From positions 46,103,626 through 46,167,625 of the forward strand of contig CM074516.1 of NCBI GenBank assembly GCA_037379345.1: a stretch of 64,000 nt of DNA, read 5' to 3'. The stretch is from Perna viridis. Lineage: Eukaryota. Shown here one piece after another: positions 6,001 through 63,000 of this stretch. Within the stretch, counting starts at the first letter, position 1; each line of letters opens with the position of its first letter. Made by a program: the position numbers.

Positions 6001-9000
6001 TAACTAATAGCTACTAAGCATTCCAAATTGGAGGTGAAATTTAGTGCATTTCCTGATTAAGTGCTAAAAGGAAAACCAAAGTGAGAGCCAAATTAGCTAA
6101 AGCCCATACCAGGTTGTCCAAATACTTCAGTTAACTCTGCTCTCAGTTTTTTCAAGACCCTTTCATCATGCAGTATATAAGCTAAGGTCCAAAATGTAAT
6201 CTGTTTATCAAATAGAGTAACACACAATCAGATATTGAAAACATTTACAAACATTGCTTTTTTTTTATTTAAGTACAGCTCTGCCTAAAAACCTGGCAGA
6301 TGCTTATAAAGGGTGCTTCATGCATTTCTTTATACCAAATATTTTTTATTGCAAATCTTTCTGTAGGCCCCATAGAAACTGTATTTGCAAATATAAGTAG
6401 TCAACTGGAGATATTAACACTTAAATTTTAGTTATATTCTACTACAGAAAAAGTACAGGAAAACTTCCCACCAGAATTTCTACACTACAACCAGTGAAAA
6501 AATATTTCACAATAAGTAGCAGATCCAAGCACATGAACATATTAAGAGTTGTTTTCAGGACCTAACAAATGGATTTATACAGTTTCATTGATTATCTTAA
6601 GATATGATGAATCACCCCCTGCCTGGTTTTTAGGCAGAACCATACTTAACAGCTTTTTATGAGTGTATTCAAATCCAATAATACACACATTAGGGAAAAA
6701 TAAACTTTCCGTGAAAATCAAACTATTGTAACCAACAAAATTCTAGTGAATTTTGTAACACATAAGAACATGATAGCTGATATTTCAAAACAACAATTTA
6801 TATAGAAAATCTGTAATTAATTTAGTATGTTATTACATCTACTAACTGGTATATCATTAGCTAGTGAGGCCTAAAGTAACAACATCCGTAGTTCGTCTAC
6901 TTACAGGTATAGAATTAGCTAGAGAGGCCCAAAGTAACAACATCCGTAGTTCGTGAGGCCTAAAGTAACATCCGTAGATCGTGAGGCCTAAAGTAACAAC
7001 ATCCGTAGTTCGTCTACTTACTGGTATAGAATTAGCTAGTGGGGCCCAAAGTAACAACATCCGTAGTTCGTGAGGCCTAAAGTAACAACATCCGTAGTTC
7101 GTCTACTTACAGGTATAGTATTAGCTAGTGAGGCCCAAAGTAACAACATCCGTAGTTCGTGGGGCCCAAAGTAACAACATCCGTAGTTCGTGGGGCCTTA
7201 AGTAACAACATCCGTAATTCGTGGGGCCTAAAGTAACAACATCCGTAGTTCCTCTACTTACAGGTATAGAATTAGCTAGTGGGGCCTAAAGTAACAACAT
7301 CCGTAGTTCGTCTACTTACAGGTATAGAATTAGCTAGTGGGGCCTAAAGTAACAACATCTGTAGTTCGTGAGGCCTAAAGTAACAACATCCGTAGTTCGT
7401 CTACTTACAGGTATAGAATTAGCTAGTGGGGCCCAAAGTAACAACATCCGTAGTTCGTCTACTTACAGGTATAGCATTAGCTAGTGAGGCCTAAAGTAAC
7501 AACATCCGTAGTTCATGGGGCCCAAAGTAACAACATCCGTAGTTCGTCTACTTACAGGTATAGCATTAGCTAGTGGGGCCCAAAGTAACAACATCCGTAG
7601 TTCGTGAGGCCTAAAGTAACAACATCCGTAGTTCGTCTACTTACAGGTATAGAATTAGCTAGTGGGGCCCAAAGTAACAACATCCGTAGTTCGTGGGGCC
7701 CAAAGTAACAACATCCGTAGTTCGTCTACTTACAGGTATAGAATTAGCTAGTGAGGCCCAAAGTAACAACATCCGTAGTTCGTCTACTTACAGGTATAGT
7801 ATTAGCTAGTGAGGCCCAAAGTAACAACATCTGTAGTTCGTGGGGCCCAAAGTAACAACATCCGTAGTTCGTCTACTTACAGGTATAGCATTAGCTAGTG
7901 GGGCCCAAAGTAACAACATCCGTAGTTCGTGAGGCCTAAAGTAACAACATCCGTAGTTCCTCTACTTACAGGTATAGTATTAGCTAGTGAGGCCCAAAGT
8001 AACAACATCCGTAGTTCGTGAGGCCTAAAGTAACAACATCCGTAGTTCGTCTACTTACAGGTATAGAATTAGCTAGTGGGGCCCAAAGTAACAACATCCG
8101 TAGTTCGTGGGGCCCAAAGTAACAACATCCGTAGTTCGTCTACTTACAGGTATAGAATTAGCTAGTGAGGCCCAAAGTAACAACATCCGTAGTTCGTCTA
8201 CTTACAGGTATAGCATTAGCTAGTGAGGCCCAAAGTAACAACATCCGTAGTTCGTGGGGCCCAAAGTAACAACATCTGTAGTTCGTCTACATACAGGTAT
8301 AGCATTAGCTAGTGGGGCCCAAAGTAACAACATCCGTAGTTCGTGAGGCCTAAAGTAACAACATCCGTAGTTCGTCTACTTACAGGTATAGAATTAGCTA
8401 GTGAGGCCCAAAGTAACAACATCCGTAGTTCGTGAGGCCTAAAGTAACAACATCCGTAGTTCATCTACTTACAGGTATAGAATTAGCTAGTGGGGCCCAA
8501 AGTAACAACATCCGTAGTTCGTCTACTTACAGGTATAGAATTAGCTAGTGGGGCCCAAAGTAACAACATCCGTAGTTCGTCTACTTACAGGTATAGAATT
8601 GGCTAGTGGGGCCTAAAGTAACAACATCCGTAGTTCGTGAGGCCTAAAGTAACAACATCCGTAGTTCGTCTACTTACAGGTATAGCATTAGCTAGTGGGG
8701 CCTAAAGTAACAACATCCGTAGTTCGTGGGGCCCAAAGTAACAACATCCGTAGTTCGTGGGGCCCAAAGTAACAACATCCGTAGTTCGTCTACTTACAGG
8801 TATAGCATTAGCTAGTGAGGCCCAAAGTAACAACATCCGTAGTTCGTGAGGCCTAAAGTAACAACATCCGTAGTTCGTGAGGCCTAAAGTAACAACATCC
8901 GTAGTTCGTGGGGCCCAAAGTAACAACATCCGTAGTTCGTCTACTTACAGGTATAGCATTAGCTAGTGGGGCCCAAAGTAACAACATCCGTAGTTCCTGA

Positions 9001-60000: not shown

Positions 60001-63000
60001 TTATACCTGGACAGATTGAGCTAGAATAGAATACATCAGAATGTATTTAAAAAGTTATATAGATACATGAATGTATTTATAATGCTACATAACATAACCA
60101 GAAATATTGACCTTTCTTCTGTTACTTTTGTATAAAAACTAAAAACAATCACAGTGAACGGATTGATTCAGTATTCTTAATGTTCAATACGTAATAGAGT
60201 GTATGAAATTTCATGTACTGTTATATGTTAAGTCAGATTGTTATGTTTGCCTTATAAAGGACAGAATCAACACACATTCCTGTGATAGTTCTTAAGGCTT
60301 GTTTTTATAATTTTCATTTCAGGTTATTAGATGTACCTTACATGTTTATATTGATAATGTTATATTTGATGTATTACTTCACTGGTAGGCAAGTCTAACT
60401 ACTAGTATTAGATATTTACTTTTTAAAATGTAAACATTACAGGAGCTGCATCCCCAACCCCTCTTGAGGAGATGGGACTTGTGCAGAGGAAAAGTGATGT
60501 AGGTGTACAGAATGGTATGTCTCCTGATGGATCCCGACCAGGGTCAGCCGATAGTGGTAGGAGTAGTAGGAAGGGTATATTACGTCCATCATCACGGTCC
60601 AGTACACCCGAGAAGAGGAGGTCCAGAAGTAACTCAGGTTAGTTGTGTCACCATAGTAATCAATTATACTGGTAATATCATCAGTCAAACGTTCTACATA
60701 TGGCAAAATTATTTTTCACTGGCTCTCACTCTTTGAGATCTTAGTAGACTCCATGTAATCTGATATCTGCCAGTTGAATATATCGGTCATTGTAATATTA
60801 TTTCAAAACACAAAACCATTTCTCACATACTTTGAACATATTCTATTGTATAATTGACTTTTGTAAAATAGTAAAATCAGCAAATGGGATTGTAATTCCT
60901 AAAAAAAAATGTCAAAAATGATACATAACTGAATATGAAAGGGTCTAATTCAGTAAAGAAACTTCTTTCAAAGAAAAACTTTTTTGTTTCAAAGATATTT
61001 GAATCAGTAATCTTTTGTTGCTTGCAGGTTTAAAAAATACTGTTTCTATTTGTATGACTTATTTTGAAGTTATAATTAACAAAGATTTTATTCTGTTTAC
61101 CAGTCGTACATTTTGAAAAGGATGATGCTGGAAAGCCAGTACGTCACATAGAACAAGATGATGAGGAAGTCATTGAGCCAGAACCAGATAAGAGCACAGA
61201 GGATAGCATGCATGAAATCGTTGATGCACAACAAAGACGACTGGATCAGTGGTGCTTTGCTGAACATCATGAGAAACATTCATTGCTACAGGTGAATAAA
61301 TTATTAGGTTACACAAGGAATCTCTTTTTGTCATAAGTTAAAGCTTCATAAAGGTATACTCTTGAAGCAATCATTTTCAAAAGTATTTTTCCCTTTTCTT
61401 TTTAAATTTCTTGTAGATTATTGGAAAACAATATATTTATATATAAAAATAACTTGATGTTCTACTTCAGATTTTGCGAGAGGCTATATATTACTTGCCA
61501 TTTGTGGATACATATTACAACAAGAGAGATCACTCTATGATGGTAGTTCTTCACAATCCTTACTCTCTAGAGCTGCAGAACCATGTAGACTGGCACACAG
61601 AATTACATTGTAATTTGGGGTTCAGGTGAGTACCTGAGTCATGTAGACTGGTACACATTTAGGATTCAGGGACTTACTCTATTGTCACCATCGAGACAAT
61701 TTTTTGTTTGTTTGTTTTTGGGTTTTTTTTATATAACAAGGGAACACTGCATCATTTGAAGTTTTTGAACATTTTAATTTTGTGTTAATTTATTTTAGAC
61801 AATACATACACAGCAACAAATTGAAAGTTAAAACAATGAATCAGTGTGTAAATTTTCCTTCCTAAATAATGAAGAACAGAACAGTTCAATTAGATACCAG
61901 TTTATATAAACTTCTATCTAAATTGTTTTACACAATCCATCTTATTTATTTTTTTTACTCTGTATATGTCTGAATTTTCTCCAGGAACTACAAGGAATAT
62001 ATGGAGGAGTCTATAGCTGATTGGAACAAAGAAGAGGAAGCTAAGTACCAGGCCAAACTTCTCTCACAGGAACTAGATAAAATGAGGTCTGATGAGGAAG
62101 AGGCAGCTAAAGCTGAAGCCAAGGCTGCTAAACGAGGCAAATCTCCTGGCAAATCACCCAGTAAGTAGGCAATTAATTCATATTAATAAGGTAAACCTTG
62201 GAAAACTTTCTTTTAAGTTGGCAACAATTTAAGAGTCAATCAATGCTGCATTACTGTAAAAAAAAAATTGAACATGTGAAAGTAAGAACAGATACTTAAC
62301 ATGTATAAACTGATCGTCAGTGATGACTTTTAACTAGATAATAAGTAGGATAATTAATTGGAAAGAGTGAATAACCAAAATATTATCACAAGTGCCGAAG
62401 AACGCCTAGATTTAACAAGGGCTTGGAACTTGCTCCATGCATGAGTTAAATCCTCAAGTATTCTTGGCAGGAGTGATCATATTTTGGTTATTCACGATAA
62501 CCAATTGATTATCCTATTTATTACATAGATTTTCTTCATAATTTATCAATATTTTCAACATGAATTTTAAATTCTGTGATTGGTTTATGATATCAAAGTT
62601 GTGACGTTTTGGCGGGAGAAAGTGTGTGAGTGAAATTACAAAATTTATTTAACAGTATAAAATATTAAAATTTATTGCACTGGGAACATTCAATAAAACA
62701 CTGCTATCTATATAATAAATCTTAAGTATTAGTCATTTTTCTGTTATATTATCCTAGTAAATGTTACCAATAGTAACCTCCTTTGATCTGTTTCACAGGC
62801 AGATCTAAGAGTCCAAAAGCTGGATCCCGAGCCAGTAGTCAGGAAAGGTCATCATCTGCTGCTAGTAACATTCTGGTCAGAGCTAATTCGTTGAAGGCTT
62901 GGAAGGATGAGCAGGATAGAATTAAGGCAGAGGAAGATGAGAAGGAGAGAGCCAAGAGTGCTAAAAGGTCAAAGTCACCTGGGAAAAAGGTAAGAAAAAT

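What the first reader, a model, noticed from the sequence alone, without database searches (positions are those of the whole stretch)
6840..61678. Recurrent duplication of exon/5'-splice-site junctions: three independent cases in 64 kb
Seen: three of the roughly 38 donors read here have the exon end plus donor copied immediately downstream (array at 6840-11764, echoes at 54237 and 61640). I noticed no equivalent on the acceptor side. Inference: there may be a lineage-wide process in which tandem duplications arise at, or are uniquely tolerated at, donor junctions because the first copy leaves the exon intact. These could seed intronic minisatellites, alternative donors and new microexons. The three cases look like stages of one life cycle: duplication, then either decay or runaway amplification.
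Basis: inference. Interest (0 to 1): 0.68.

Follow-up and report, generated by a model that had tools for sequence, protein, structure and literature searches.

The report
Exon-end/donor duplications inside mussel introns
Three short tandem duplications that each copy the end of an exon plus its splice donor into the following intron are really there (one grew into a 4.9-kb repeat array), but this is a kind of repeat already known from human genes, and one 64-kb window cannot show a special donor-side process.

Summary
Observation largely confirmed. (1) The array at 6838-11766 lies on the minus strand, in intron 7 of a cytochrome P450 gene. Its unit is about 48 nt of exon 7 end (coding ..NYSLLLLWASLANAIP) plus about 11 nt of intron starting GTAAGT. 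There are 59 donor-bearing 58-nt units (the authentic one plus 58 copies, GT kept in all) and 49 short units that lack the donor. (2) In a SPAG17-like gene, 54116-54236 is duplicated at 54237-~54359 (about 80% identity; donor GT now GC; in-frame stop). (3) 61582-61639 is echoed at 61640-~61685 (28 of 31 aligned bases, one 14-nt gap; GT now GG). This case is weaker but beats shuffles. No acceptor-side echo was found (0 of 33).

The in-window test gives 3 of 34 donors against 0.63 expected (P=0.025, post hoc; P=0.07-0.08 at stricter thresholds). Donor versus acceptor is not significant (Fisher p=0.24). Minisatellites whose first monomer spans an exon/5' splice-site boundary are described for human F7, CBS, 6-16, LMNB2 and PDGF. 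In F7, splicing uses only the most upstream donor, which explains the tolerance. Best reading: ordinary tandem duplications that survive at donor junctions. This is a new member of a known kind.

The parts
11727..11822 (-). P450 exon 7 (96 nt, TLLQTLLQLVQDDYKPNYSLLLLWASLANAIP). Its last ~48 nt are the exon-derived part of the array unit.
   Evidence: ORF listing. Local tblastn with representative-search hits shows LLLLWASLANAIP continuing as ITFW.. in homologues. Splice sites ttttcatag|ACA and CCT|gtaagtag.
11725..11726 (-). Authentic donor GT of P450 intron 7 (CCT|GTAAGTAG).
6838..11766 (-). Minisatellite, 4.9 kb. It has 59 donor-bearing 58-nt units (the first is embedded in exon 7 and carries the authentic donor) and 49 short (31/28-nt) units that lack a 27-nt piece containing the donor. 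The dominant higher-order period is 89 nt.
   Evidence: TRF, module counts, 29-mer scan, 96.8% mean identity of long units to their consensus.
11636..11637 (-). First decoy donor GT, 89 nt downstream of the authentic one. An in-frame TAG at 11652-11654 lies before it.
   Evidence: GT list; ORF 11655-11822 ends at that stop.
6110..6200 (-). P450 exon 8 (ITFWTLAYILHDERVLKKLRAELTEVFGQPG), the acceptor-side partner of intron 7.
   Evidence: tblastn; acceptor tgataaacag|ATT.
54015..54205 (+). SPAG17-like exon S8, donor CAG|gtcagt at 54206.
   Evidence: tblastn with Mytilus edulis SPAG17 model P0058, E=7e-27, junction MLEQ|VVATE. Splice sites.
54116..54236 (+). Case 2, first unit of a 121-nt tandem duplication: 90 nt of exon S8 end plus 31 nt of intron.
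54237..54359 (+). Case 2, decayed second unit. Donor-equivalent GT is now GC at 54327-54328. Its translation carries a stop (YND*MNCIPQDSVTVPLVIQCVLE).
   Evidence: (tblastn E=1e-5).
61471..61625 (+). SPAG17-like exon S14, donor CAG|gtgagt at 61626.
   Evidence: tblastn with P0058, E=5e-28.
61582..61639 (+). Case 3, first unit (58 nt): 44 nt of exon S14 end plus 14 nt of intron.
61640..61685 (+). Case 3, decayed copy with a 14-nt gap. Donor-equivalent GT is now GG at 61670-61671. The 3' limit is approximate.

Best explanation
These are three independent, ordinary tandem duplications, with units of about 59, 121 and 58 nt. Each happened to straddle an exon/5' splice-site junction. The likely origin is replication slippage or unequal exchange; that step is inferred.

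Such a duplication is harmless as long as the spliceosome keeps using the first, most upstream donor. The exon stays intact and the second copy simply becomes the start of the intron.

Once intronic, a copy can go one of two ways:
- It can drift. The SPAG17 copies are at about 80% identity, have lost GT, and one carries a stop codon.
- It can be amplified and homogenised by unequal crossing-over into a minisatellite. The P450 array has 108 modules over 4.9 kb, with units about 97% alike.

Shown here: the anatomy, the exon origin of the copies, and their position on the donor side. Inferred: the mutational mechanism, and that only the upstream donor is used. Use of any decoy in the P450 array would read into an in-frame TAG, so decoy use is expected to be non-productive.
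For: - The exon is the source of the array, not the reverse. The peptide LLLLWASLANAIP followed by ITFW is contiguous in homologous P450 fragments from other organisms (P0012, P0010, P0009, P0029, P0037, P0040). In the window it is split by intron 7, exactly at CCT|GTAAGT.
- The unit is about 48 nt of exon plus about 11 nt of intron. The last array unit runs straight into unique intron sequence.
- The array is homogenised. Mean identity to consensus is 96.8%. Variation is confined to a few columns, and only the distal edge unit has diverged, to 81%.
- Case 2 is a clean 121-nt tandem repeat. Its exon-derived part (79-84%) is better kept than its intron-derived part.
- The window is rich in local duplications of all kinds. 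There are 29 echo clusters and 7 arrays in 64 kb, and most have nothing to do with exons.
- Only tolerated classes of exon-derived copy exist. These are the donor-side partial copies and one whole-exon duplicate, E9a/E9b.
- Precedent and mechanism come from PMC1557585 (abstract, Introduction passages and Discussion read). Several human genes carry minisatellites whose first monomer spans the exon-intron boundary. In F7 the identical downstream pseudo-sites are functional but silent, because the most upstream site is selected.
Against: - Donor junctions carry more leading-edge echoes than random positions of this window: 3 of 34 against 0.63 expected, P=0.025. This could point to something beyond pure chance placement.
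- No RNA data were available, so use of the upstream donor only is assumed.
- In the human 6-16 and CBS genes the first two pseudo-sites are also used (PMC1557585 Introduction).
- In F7, pseudo-sites that matched the consensus perfectly did shift splicing (Discussion). The decoys here have a perfect GTAAGT at +1 to +6.
- Exon models rest on predicted proteins and Pfam matches, not on transcripts.
Confidence: 0.78

Rival explanations
1. A lineage-wide process makes tandem duplications arise preferentially at donor junctions, or be retained there by selection. One possible advantage would be that extra U1-binding sites just downstream of a donor are beneficial. The process would then feed minisatellites, alternative donors and microexons.
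For: 3 of 34 donors against 0.63 expected, P=0.025, with 0 of 32 acceptors. All three cases are strictly tandem and adjacent to the donor. All 58 array copies keep GT.
Against: The test is post hoc, on a window that was flagged because of these cases. At stricter thresholds P=0.07-0.08, and donor versus acceptor gives Fisher p=0.24. Conservation of the exon half inflates detectability of donor-side pairs. GT retention in the array is expected from homogenisation of young units (96.8% identity) and needs no selection. The same architecture exists in humans, so nothing lineage-specific is required.
Confidence: 0.13
2. The P450 array is a pre-existing satellite or transposon-borne repeat that landed next to exon 7. 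The exon end would then have been recruited from a repeat unit (exonisation), so the direction of copying is array to exon.
For: The window carries many unrelated minisatellites and transposon fragments. Only one locus could be examined.
Against: The exon-derived part encodes the conserved P450 segment NY.LL.LWAS.AN..P, which is contiguous with ..FW in homologues from other organisms. The coding sequence is therefore older than the array. The unit occurs nowhere else in the window. A protein-level search with an 80-aa array ORF found nothing, which is weak evidence.
Confidence: 0.03
3. Case 3 (61640) is a chance resemblance. Only two donor-junction duplications are then real.
For: Only 17 of 18 plus 12 of 14 matches, with a 14-nt gap. 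It is not found by blastn at E<1e-3 or E<1e-2. 0.64% of non-array positions score as high, which gives about 0.2 expected among 34 donors.
Against: 0, 1 and 0 of 2000 shuffles reach the score. The second block keeps the exon/intron junction TTCAG|G in the right order, and the copy starts 14 nt after the donor.
Confidence: 0.2

Closest known systems
Human F7 intron 7 37-bp VNTR (Borensztajn et al. 2006, PMC1557585; abstract, Introduction passages and Discussion read)
   Same: It is a minisatellite whose first monomer spans the exon/intron boundary. The authentic donor is therefore followed by pseudo-donors of identical sequence inside the intron. [quoted passage not shown]
   Different: F7 has 5-9 monomers of 37 bp, with only 4 bp of exon per monomer. 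Here there are 59 donor-bearing units of 58 nt, about 48 nt of each being coding sequence, plus 49 donor-less short units in an 89-nt higher-order pattern. The host is a mollusc P450. Splicing was not tested here.
Human CBS intron 13, interferon-inducible 6-16, LAMIN B2 and PDGF minisatellites (as listed in the Introduction of PMC1557585; the original papers were not read, and PMC306954 is not held)
   Same: These are arrays of 10-25 or more monomers (up to 100 bp) that start at an exon/5'ss junction. The LAMIN B2 reference title says the repeat covers most of an intron, as the array does here.
   Different: In 6-16 and CBS the first two pseudo-sites are also spliced. Here any decoy use would meet an in-frame stop. 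Copy number is larger here.
Tandem exon duplication / intron gain by tandem genomic duplication (for example PMC3265369, seen in a search listing and abstract start only)
   Same: A local tandem duplication creates duplicated splice signals, and the splicing machinery resolves them without harm to the mRNA.
   Different: Those cases duplicate a whole exon or an internal exon segment. Cases 1-3 duplicate only the 3' part of an exon plus the donor, and simply lengthen an existing intron. A true whole-exon duplicate does exist nearby in the P450 gene (E9a/E9b).

Membership tests
Minisatellite with first monomer spanning an exon/5' splice-site boundary (F7/CBS/6-16/LMNB2/PDGF type) | Head-to-tail tandem array located in an intron | tested here: met
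   TRF 6838-11764; 108 modules totalling 4938 nt; lies between exon 7 (11727) and exon 8 (6200).
Minisatellite with first monomer spanning an exon/5' splice-site boundary (F7/CBS/6-16/LMNB2/PDGF type) | First monomer contains the authentic exon end and donor | tested here: met
   The first 29-mer match at 11716-11744 includes the authentic GT at 11726. The exon end is confirmed by homologues.
Minisatellite with first monomer spanning an exon/5' splice-site boundary (F7/CBS/6-16/LMNB2/PDGF type) | Donor sequence reiterated in downstream monomers | tested here: met
   GT present in 59 of 59 donor-bearing units. The 9-mer CTGTAAGTA is identical in 53 of 59.
Minisatellite with first monomer spanning an exon/5' splice-site boundary (F7/CBS/6-16/LMNB2/PDGF type) | Pseudo-sites silent (or nearly so), with the most upstream donor used | not testable with these tools
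   No transcript data. The only indirect point is that read-through meets TAG at 11652-11654, before the first decoy.
Minisatellite with first monomer spanning an exon/5' splice-site boundary (F7/CBS/6-16/LMNB2/PDGF type) | Copy-number polymorphism (VNTR) | not testable with these tools
   Only a single haplotype is available.
Whole-exon tandem duplication (considered for case 2) | The copy includes the acceptor and the full exon | tested here: not met
   The copy starts at exon nt 102 of 191 (54116). An 11-of-12 match to the acceptor context just 5' of the copy (54230-54241) is part of the first unit's intron tail, and I judge it to be chance.
Dispersed satellite / transposon-borne repeat (considered for case 1) | The same unit present at unrelated loci | tested here: inconclusive
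   None outside the array within the window. No protein-database hit for an array ORF. No mollusc genome could be searched.
Cytochrome P450 (Pfam PF00067), host gene of case 1 | Match to the P450 profile | tested here: met
   Exon ORFs 1368-1505 (E=3.5e-7, 29.8 bits, above the cut-off of 22.8) and 3477-3722 (E=8.5e-5, 21.9 bits, just below the cut-off). The heme-binding exon was not found in the window. Assignment to the CYP7/8/39 group is my recall only.
SPAG17 (host gene of cases 2 and 3) | Sequence similarity to named SPAG17 proteins | tested here: met
   PDB 9ijj chain x, 'Sperm-associated antigen 17', E=0.0015 for one exon. Mytilus edulis SPAG17 P0058 is 86% identical on that exon and collinear over 17 exons.

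The most novel reading that the evidence does not exclude
In this mussel lineage, tandem duplications are truly concentrated at 5' splice-site junctions, about 5-fold over background in this window. The cause would be either a transcription- or splicing-coupled mutational bias, or an advantage of extra U1-binding sites just inside the intron. The P450 array, with 58 intact decoy donors, would then act as a U1-recruiting or NMD-coupled regulator of that gene rather than as inert DNA.
Probability: 0.1. Interest if true: 0.65.

Novelty: new member of a known kind. Interest (0 to 1): 0.34.

Why it matters
The P450 intron is a natural experiment. One authentic donor is followed by 58 copies that share about 48 nt of upstream exon context, and 52 of them have an identical 9-nt donor core. 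That is more copies than the human examples named in the paper I read. [quoted passage not shown]

It is also a caution for gene prediction in repeat-rich mollusc genomes, because decoy donors and pseudo-exon fragments sit right next to real exons.

The broader claim of a donor-specific duplication process would be of interest for how introns grow and how alternative donors arise. It needs a genome-wide test.

Tried and rejected
Searches that gave nothing useful:
- Protein search with the P450 first-exon ORF, longer lengths: no hit.
- PDB search with the 32-aa exon 7 peptide: no hit.
- PDB search with exon 2: only a weak CYP51 match, E=0.35, so no subfamily name could be assigned.
- Protein search with an 80-aa ORF of the array, to see whether the repeat exists elsewhere: none. 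This is weak evidence, because such ORFs may never have been called.
- PDB search with an OSCP1 exon: only chance matches.
- Rfam scan of the window: nothing.

Other tests:
- RNA fold of the first 227 nt of the array, to see whether structure could mask decoy donors: z=-0.67, no signal.
- A purely position-based background (15% of window positions have an echo of at least 31 within 500 nt) was rejected as a null. Arrays inflate it. It was replaced by a leading-edge definition.
- The idea that the 58201-59695 array starts at an exon junction was rejected. The ORF before it is absent from the M. edulis SPAG17 model, and no exon similarity was found.

Literature and tools:
- Paper PMC306954 is not held.
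- Searches found no mollusc or genome-wide study of junction-spanning repeats.
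Full report
WHAT THE WINDOW HOLDS

The window has 64,000 bases, no N, and about 31% G+C. I do not take it for human. It carries three genes.

(a) A cytochrome P450 gene on the minus strand, from about 20038 to below 1392.
- Pfam PF00067 matches two exon ORFs.
- Its exons were placed by local tblastn with unnamed P450 fragments from the representative search.
- Placing it in the CYP7/8/39 group is my recall, not a tool result.

(b) OSCP1 on the plus strand, 20565-36771. Pfam PF10188 matches five consecutive exon ORFs, covering profile positions 1-173 in order.

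(c) A SPAG17-like gene on the plus strand, from 44406 to the window end.
- One exon matches PDB 9ijj chain x, 'Sperm-associated antigen 17', E=0.0015.
- That exon is 86% identical to a Mytilus edulis SPAG17 model, P0058.
- P0058 is collinear with 17 window exons. The organism is therefore a mussel relative.

I fixed 36 exons with canonical AG/GT boundaries. That gives 35 donors, of which 34 are far enough from the window ends to test, and 33 acceptors. A few small exons were not located. These are a doubtful duplicate exon (E9a), one OSCP1 exon implied by a phase mismatch, and two short SPAG17 exons.

All homology searches were done exon by exon. The joined (spliced) model step was left out, so no full-length protein was searched or folded. 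There is no transcript evidence for any junction.

CASE 1: THE ARRAY

TRF finds an array at 6838-11764 with periods 58, 89 and multiples.

Exon origin of the unit. On the minus strand the array begins inside P450 exon 7 (11727-11822).
- The exon encodes TLLQTLLQLVQDDYKPNYSLLLLWASLANAIP and ends CCT|GTAAGTAG.
- Homologues from other organisms read ..LLLLWASLANAIPITFW.. without interruption.
- The ITFW.. part lies at 6200-6110, in exon 8. The intron-7 position and the exon end are therefore well supported, and the coding sequence predates the array.

Anatomy of the unit.
- The unit is about 48 nt of exon end plus about 11 nt of intron (GTAAGTAGACG).
- The last unit, the only strongly diverged one at 81%, runs into unique intron sequence.
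- There are 59 donor-bearing 58-nt units: the authentic one plus 58 copies.
- There are 49 short units (31 or 28 nt), which lack a 27-nt piece containing the donor.
- The two types mostly alternate, giving an 89-nt higher-order repeat. The total is 4938 nt.

Conservation of the copies.
- GT is present in 59 of 59 long units. The 9-mer CTGTAAGTA is identical in 53 of 59.
- Units are 96.8% identical to their consensus, and variation is concentrated in about seven columns. This is the pattern of recent amplification and homogenisation, not of independent decay.
- A junction 29-mer matches 58 times with at most 3 mismatches, only within the array, with 0 expected by chance.

Consequence of decoy use. 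The first decoy GT (11637) lies 89 nt downstream of the authentic donor. An in-frame TAG (11654-11652) precedes it. Any decoy use would therefore give a premature stop.

RNA structure. An RNA fold of the first 227 nt shows no unusual structure (z=-0.67).

CASE 2

SPAG17 exon S8 is 54015-54205, with donor CAG|gtcagt. The junction MLEQ|VVATE is confirmed by P0058.
- The segment 54116-54236 (90 nt of exon plus 31 nt of intron) is repeated at 54237-~54359. Identity is 79% over 95 nt, and blastn gives 82% over 91 nt, E=4e-18.
- The copy translates with a stop codon and still hits P0058 at E=1e-5.
- Its donor-equivalent GT is now GC, at 54327-54328.
- The intron-derived part is more diverged than the exon-derived part.

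CASE 3

SPAG17 exon S14 is 61471-61625, with donor CAG|gtgagt. The segment 61582-61639 is echoed from 61640.
- The match is 17 of 18, then a 14-nt gap, then 12 of 14 including the junction TTCAG|G.
- GT is now GG, at 61670-61671.
- Shuffles reach the score in 0, 1 and 0 of 2000 trials.
- blastn does not report the echo, and 0.64% of non-array positions do as well.
- I rate it probable, not certain.

IS IT MORE THAN CHANCE, AND IS IT DONOR-SPECIFIC?

Site-by-site test. The query was the last 60 nt of exon plus 12 nt of intron, aligned to the next 500 nt.
- Donor scores are 98 (E7), 80 (S8) and 31 (S14). The other 31 donors score 12-21.
- The 33 acceptors in the mirror test score 12-24.

Background in this window.
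- There are 29 clusters scoring at least 31 in 64 kb. Seven are arrays and 22 are small events. Only these three touch an exon.
- 15% of all positions score at least 31. That figure is dominated by array interiors and is not a fair null.

Leading-edge test. I counted only positions with a downstream echo within 150 nt and no upstream echo.
- The background is 1.87% (1184 of 63,400 positions, both orientations).
- The expectation is then 0.63 of 34 donors. The observed count is 3 (binomial P=0.025).
- At thresholds 40 and 60, 2 of 34 donors are positive (P=0.083 and 0.072).
- Acceptors are 0 of 32, against 0.60 expected, so P(0)=0.55.
- Fisher's test for donors against acceptors gives p=0.24.

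Whole-exon check. A search of every exon against the whole window found only four non-self relationships:
- E7 to the array;
- S8 to its copy;
- the whole-exon pair E9a/E9b;
- a low-complexity S15/S16 match.

Reading of the statistics. The donor excess is nominal, post hoc, and rests on three events in a window chosen because of them. The asymmetry is not significant. One bias also favours donor-side pairs, because the exon half of the first copy is conserved.

GT loss. It is 2 of 2 in the decayed copies. By my arithmetic this has about a 0.13 chance at roughly 20% divergence. It is 0 of 58 in the array.

MECHANISM

The best reading is ordinary tandem duplication with survivorship.
- A duplicate that straddles a donor leaves an intact exon and donor upstream.
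- Duplicates inside exons, or ones that add an upstream competing acceptor, would damage the mRNA and be lost.
- The copy then either decays or expands.

That the upstream donor wins is inferred from human F7. There, identical downstream pseudo-sites are functional but unused, and when the first site is mutated the next one takes over (PMC1557585: abstract, Introduction passages, Discussion). The same paper gives two caveats. In 6-16 and CBS two pseudo-sites are also used. In F7, pseudo-sites with perfect consensus can shift splicing.

COMPARISON AND NOVELTY

The Introduction of PMC1557585 states that several genes carry minisatellites with the first monomer spanning an exon-intron boundary. 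It names:
- 6-16, with 25 pseudo-sites;
- CBS IVS13, with 15-20 monomers;
- LAMIN B2, with 10-15 repeats of 100 bp;
- PDGF, with 16-18 repeats of 81 bp;
- F7, with 5-9 repeats of 37 bp.

The P450 array meets the three structural criteria of that class. The two functional ones, silent pseudo-sites and polymorphism, could not be tested.

It differs in three ways: scale (58 decoys), a unit that is about 80% coding sequence, and its taxon. My literature searches found no mollusc example and no genome-wide survey of such junction-spanning repeats. These searches cover only the held library, and supplements were closed.

I file it as a new member of a known kind.

WHAT STAYED UNCHECKED

- No mollusc genome or transcriptome could be searched.
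- As a result, three things remain open: the genome-wide rate test, the age of the duplications, and the presence of the array in relatives.

Noticed in passing
window 4311-4429 (-) and 3483-3613 (-): The P450 K-helix exon is present twice, about 820 nt apart (E9a and E9b; tblastx E=2e-8, about 48% amino-acid identity). E9b has good splice sites. E9a has an acceptor but no GT at the equivalent donor position. It is either a decayed whole-exon duplicate or an alternative exon.
   Followed up: partly
window 12924-13364, 17181-17669, 24653-24851, 32189-32435, 35627-36313, 58201-59695: Six further intronic minisatellites. Examples are a 28-nt unit x 7.1 copies at 100% identity, a 69-nt unit x 10, and a 26-27-nt unit x ~55 with strong GC skew (-0.485). 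None contains exon sequence. The genome is very rich in such arrays.
   Followed up: partly
window 18872-19491 (-): Reverse-transcriptase ORF fragments (Pfam RVT_1, E=1e-15 and 6e-6) lie inside P450 intron 1. They are a retroelement remnant on the same strand as the gene.
   Followed up: partly
window 33934-34278 (+) and 46290-46709 (-): Two copies of the same unnamed ORF family (..GKGKLLTKLYD..DDFSFRIVNFPFICGNIPSAP..YGVFISQLIRYAR..), one in an OSCP1 intron and one in a SPAG17 intron. There is no Pfam match. It is probably a dispersed mobile-element fragment.
   Followed up: no
window 741-1113 and 27749-27883: Two purely intronic tandem duplications (units of about 141 nt and 65-68 nt, 71-85% identity). 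They are the non-exon counterparts of cases 2 and 3.
   Followed up: partly
window 57921-58112 (+): An open frame rich in S/P/K (..SGTSSSDATPAVSPIPPAKHVTDTKTKKRPSRSKKKPKRN) lies just upstream of the 58201 array. It is absent from the M. edulis SPAG17 model. It may be an unannotated or alternative exon, or nothing.
   Followed up: no
window 53244-53291 (+) and 30598-32924 (+): There are two gene-model oddities. SPAG17 exon S6 seems to carry 16 extra residues (IKNLIVPENLEDAEQK) relative to the M. edulis model. OSCP1 exons O6 (ends in phase 2) and O7 (starts in phase 0) do not fit, so a small exon between them was not found.
   Followed up: no
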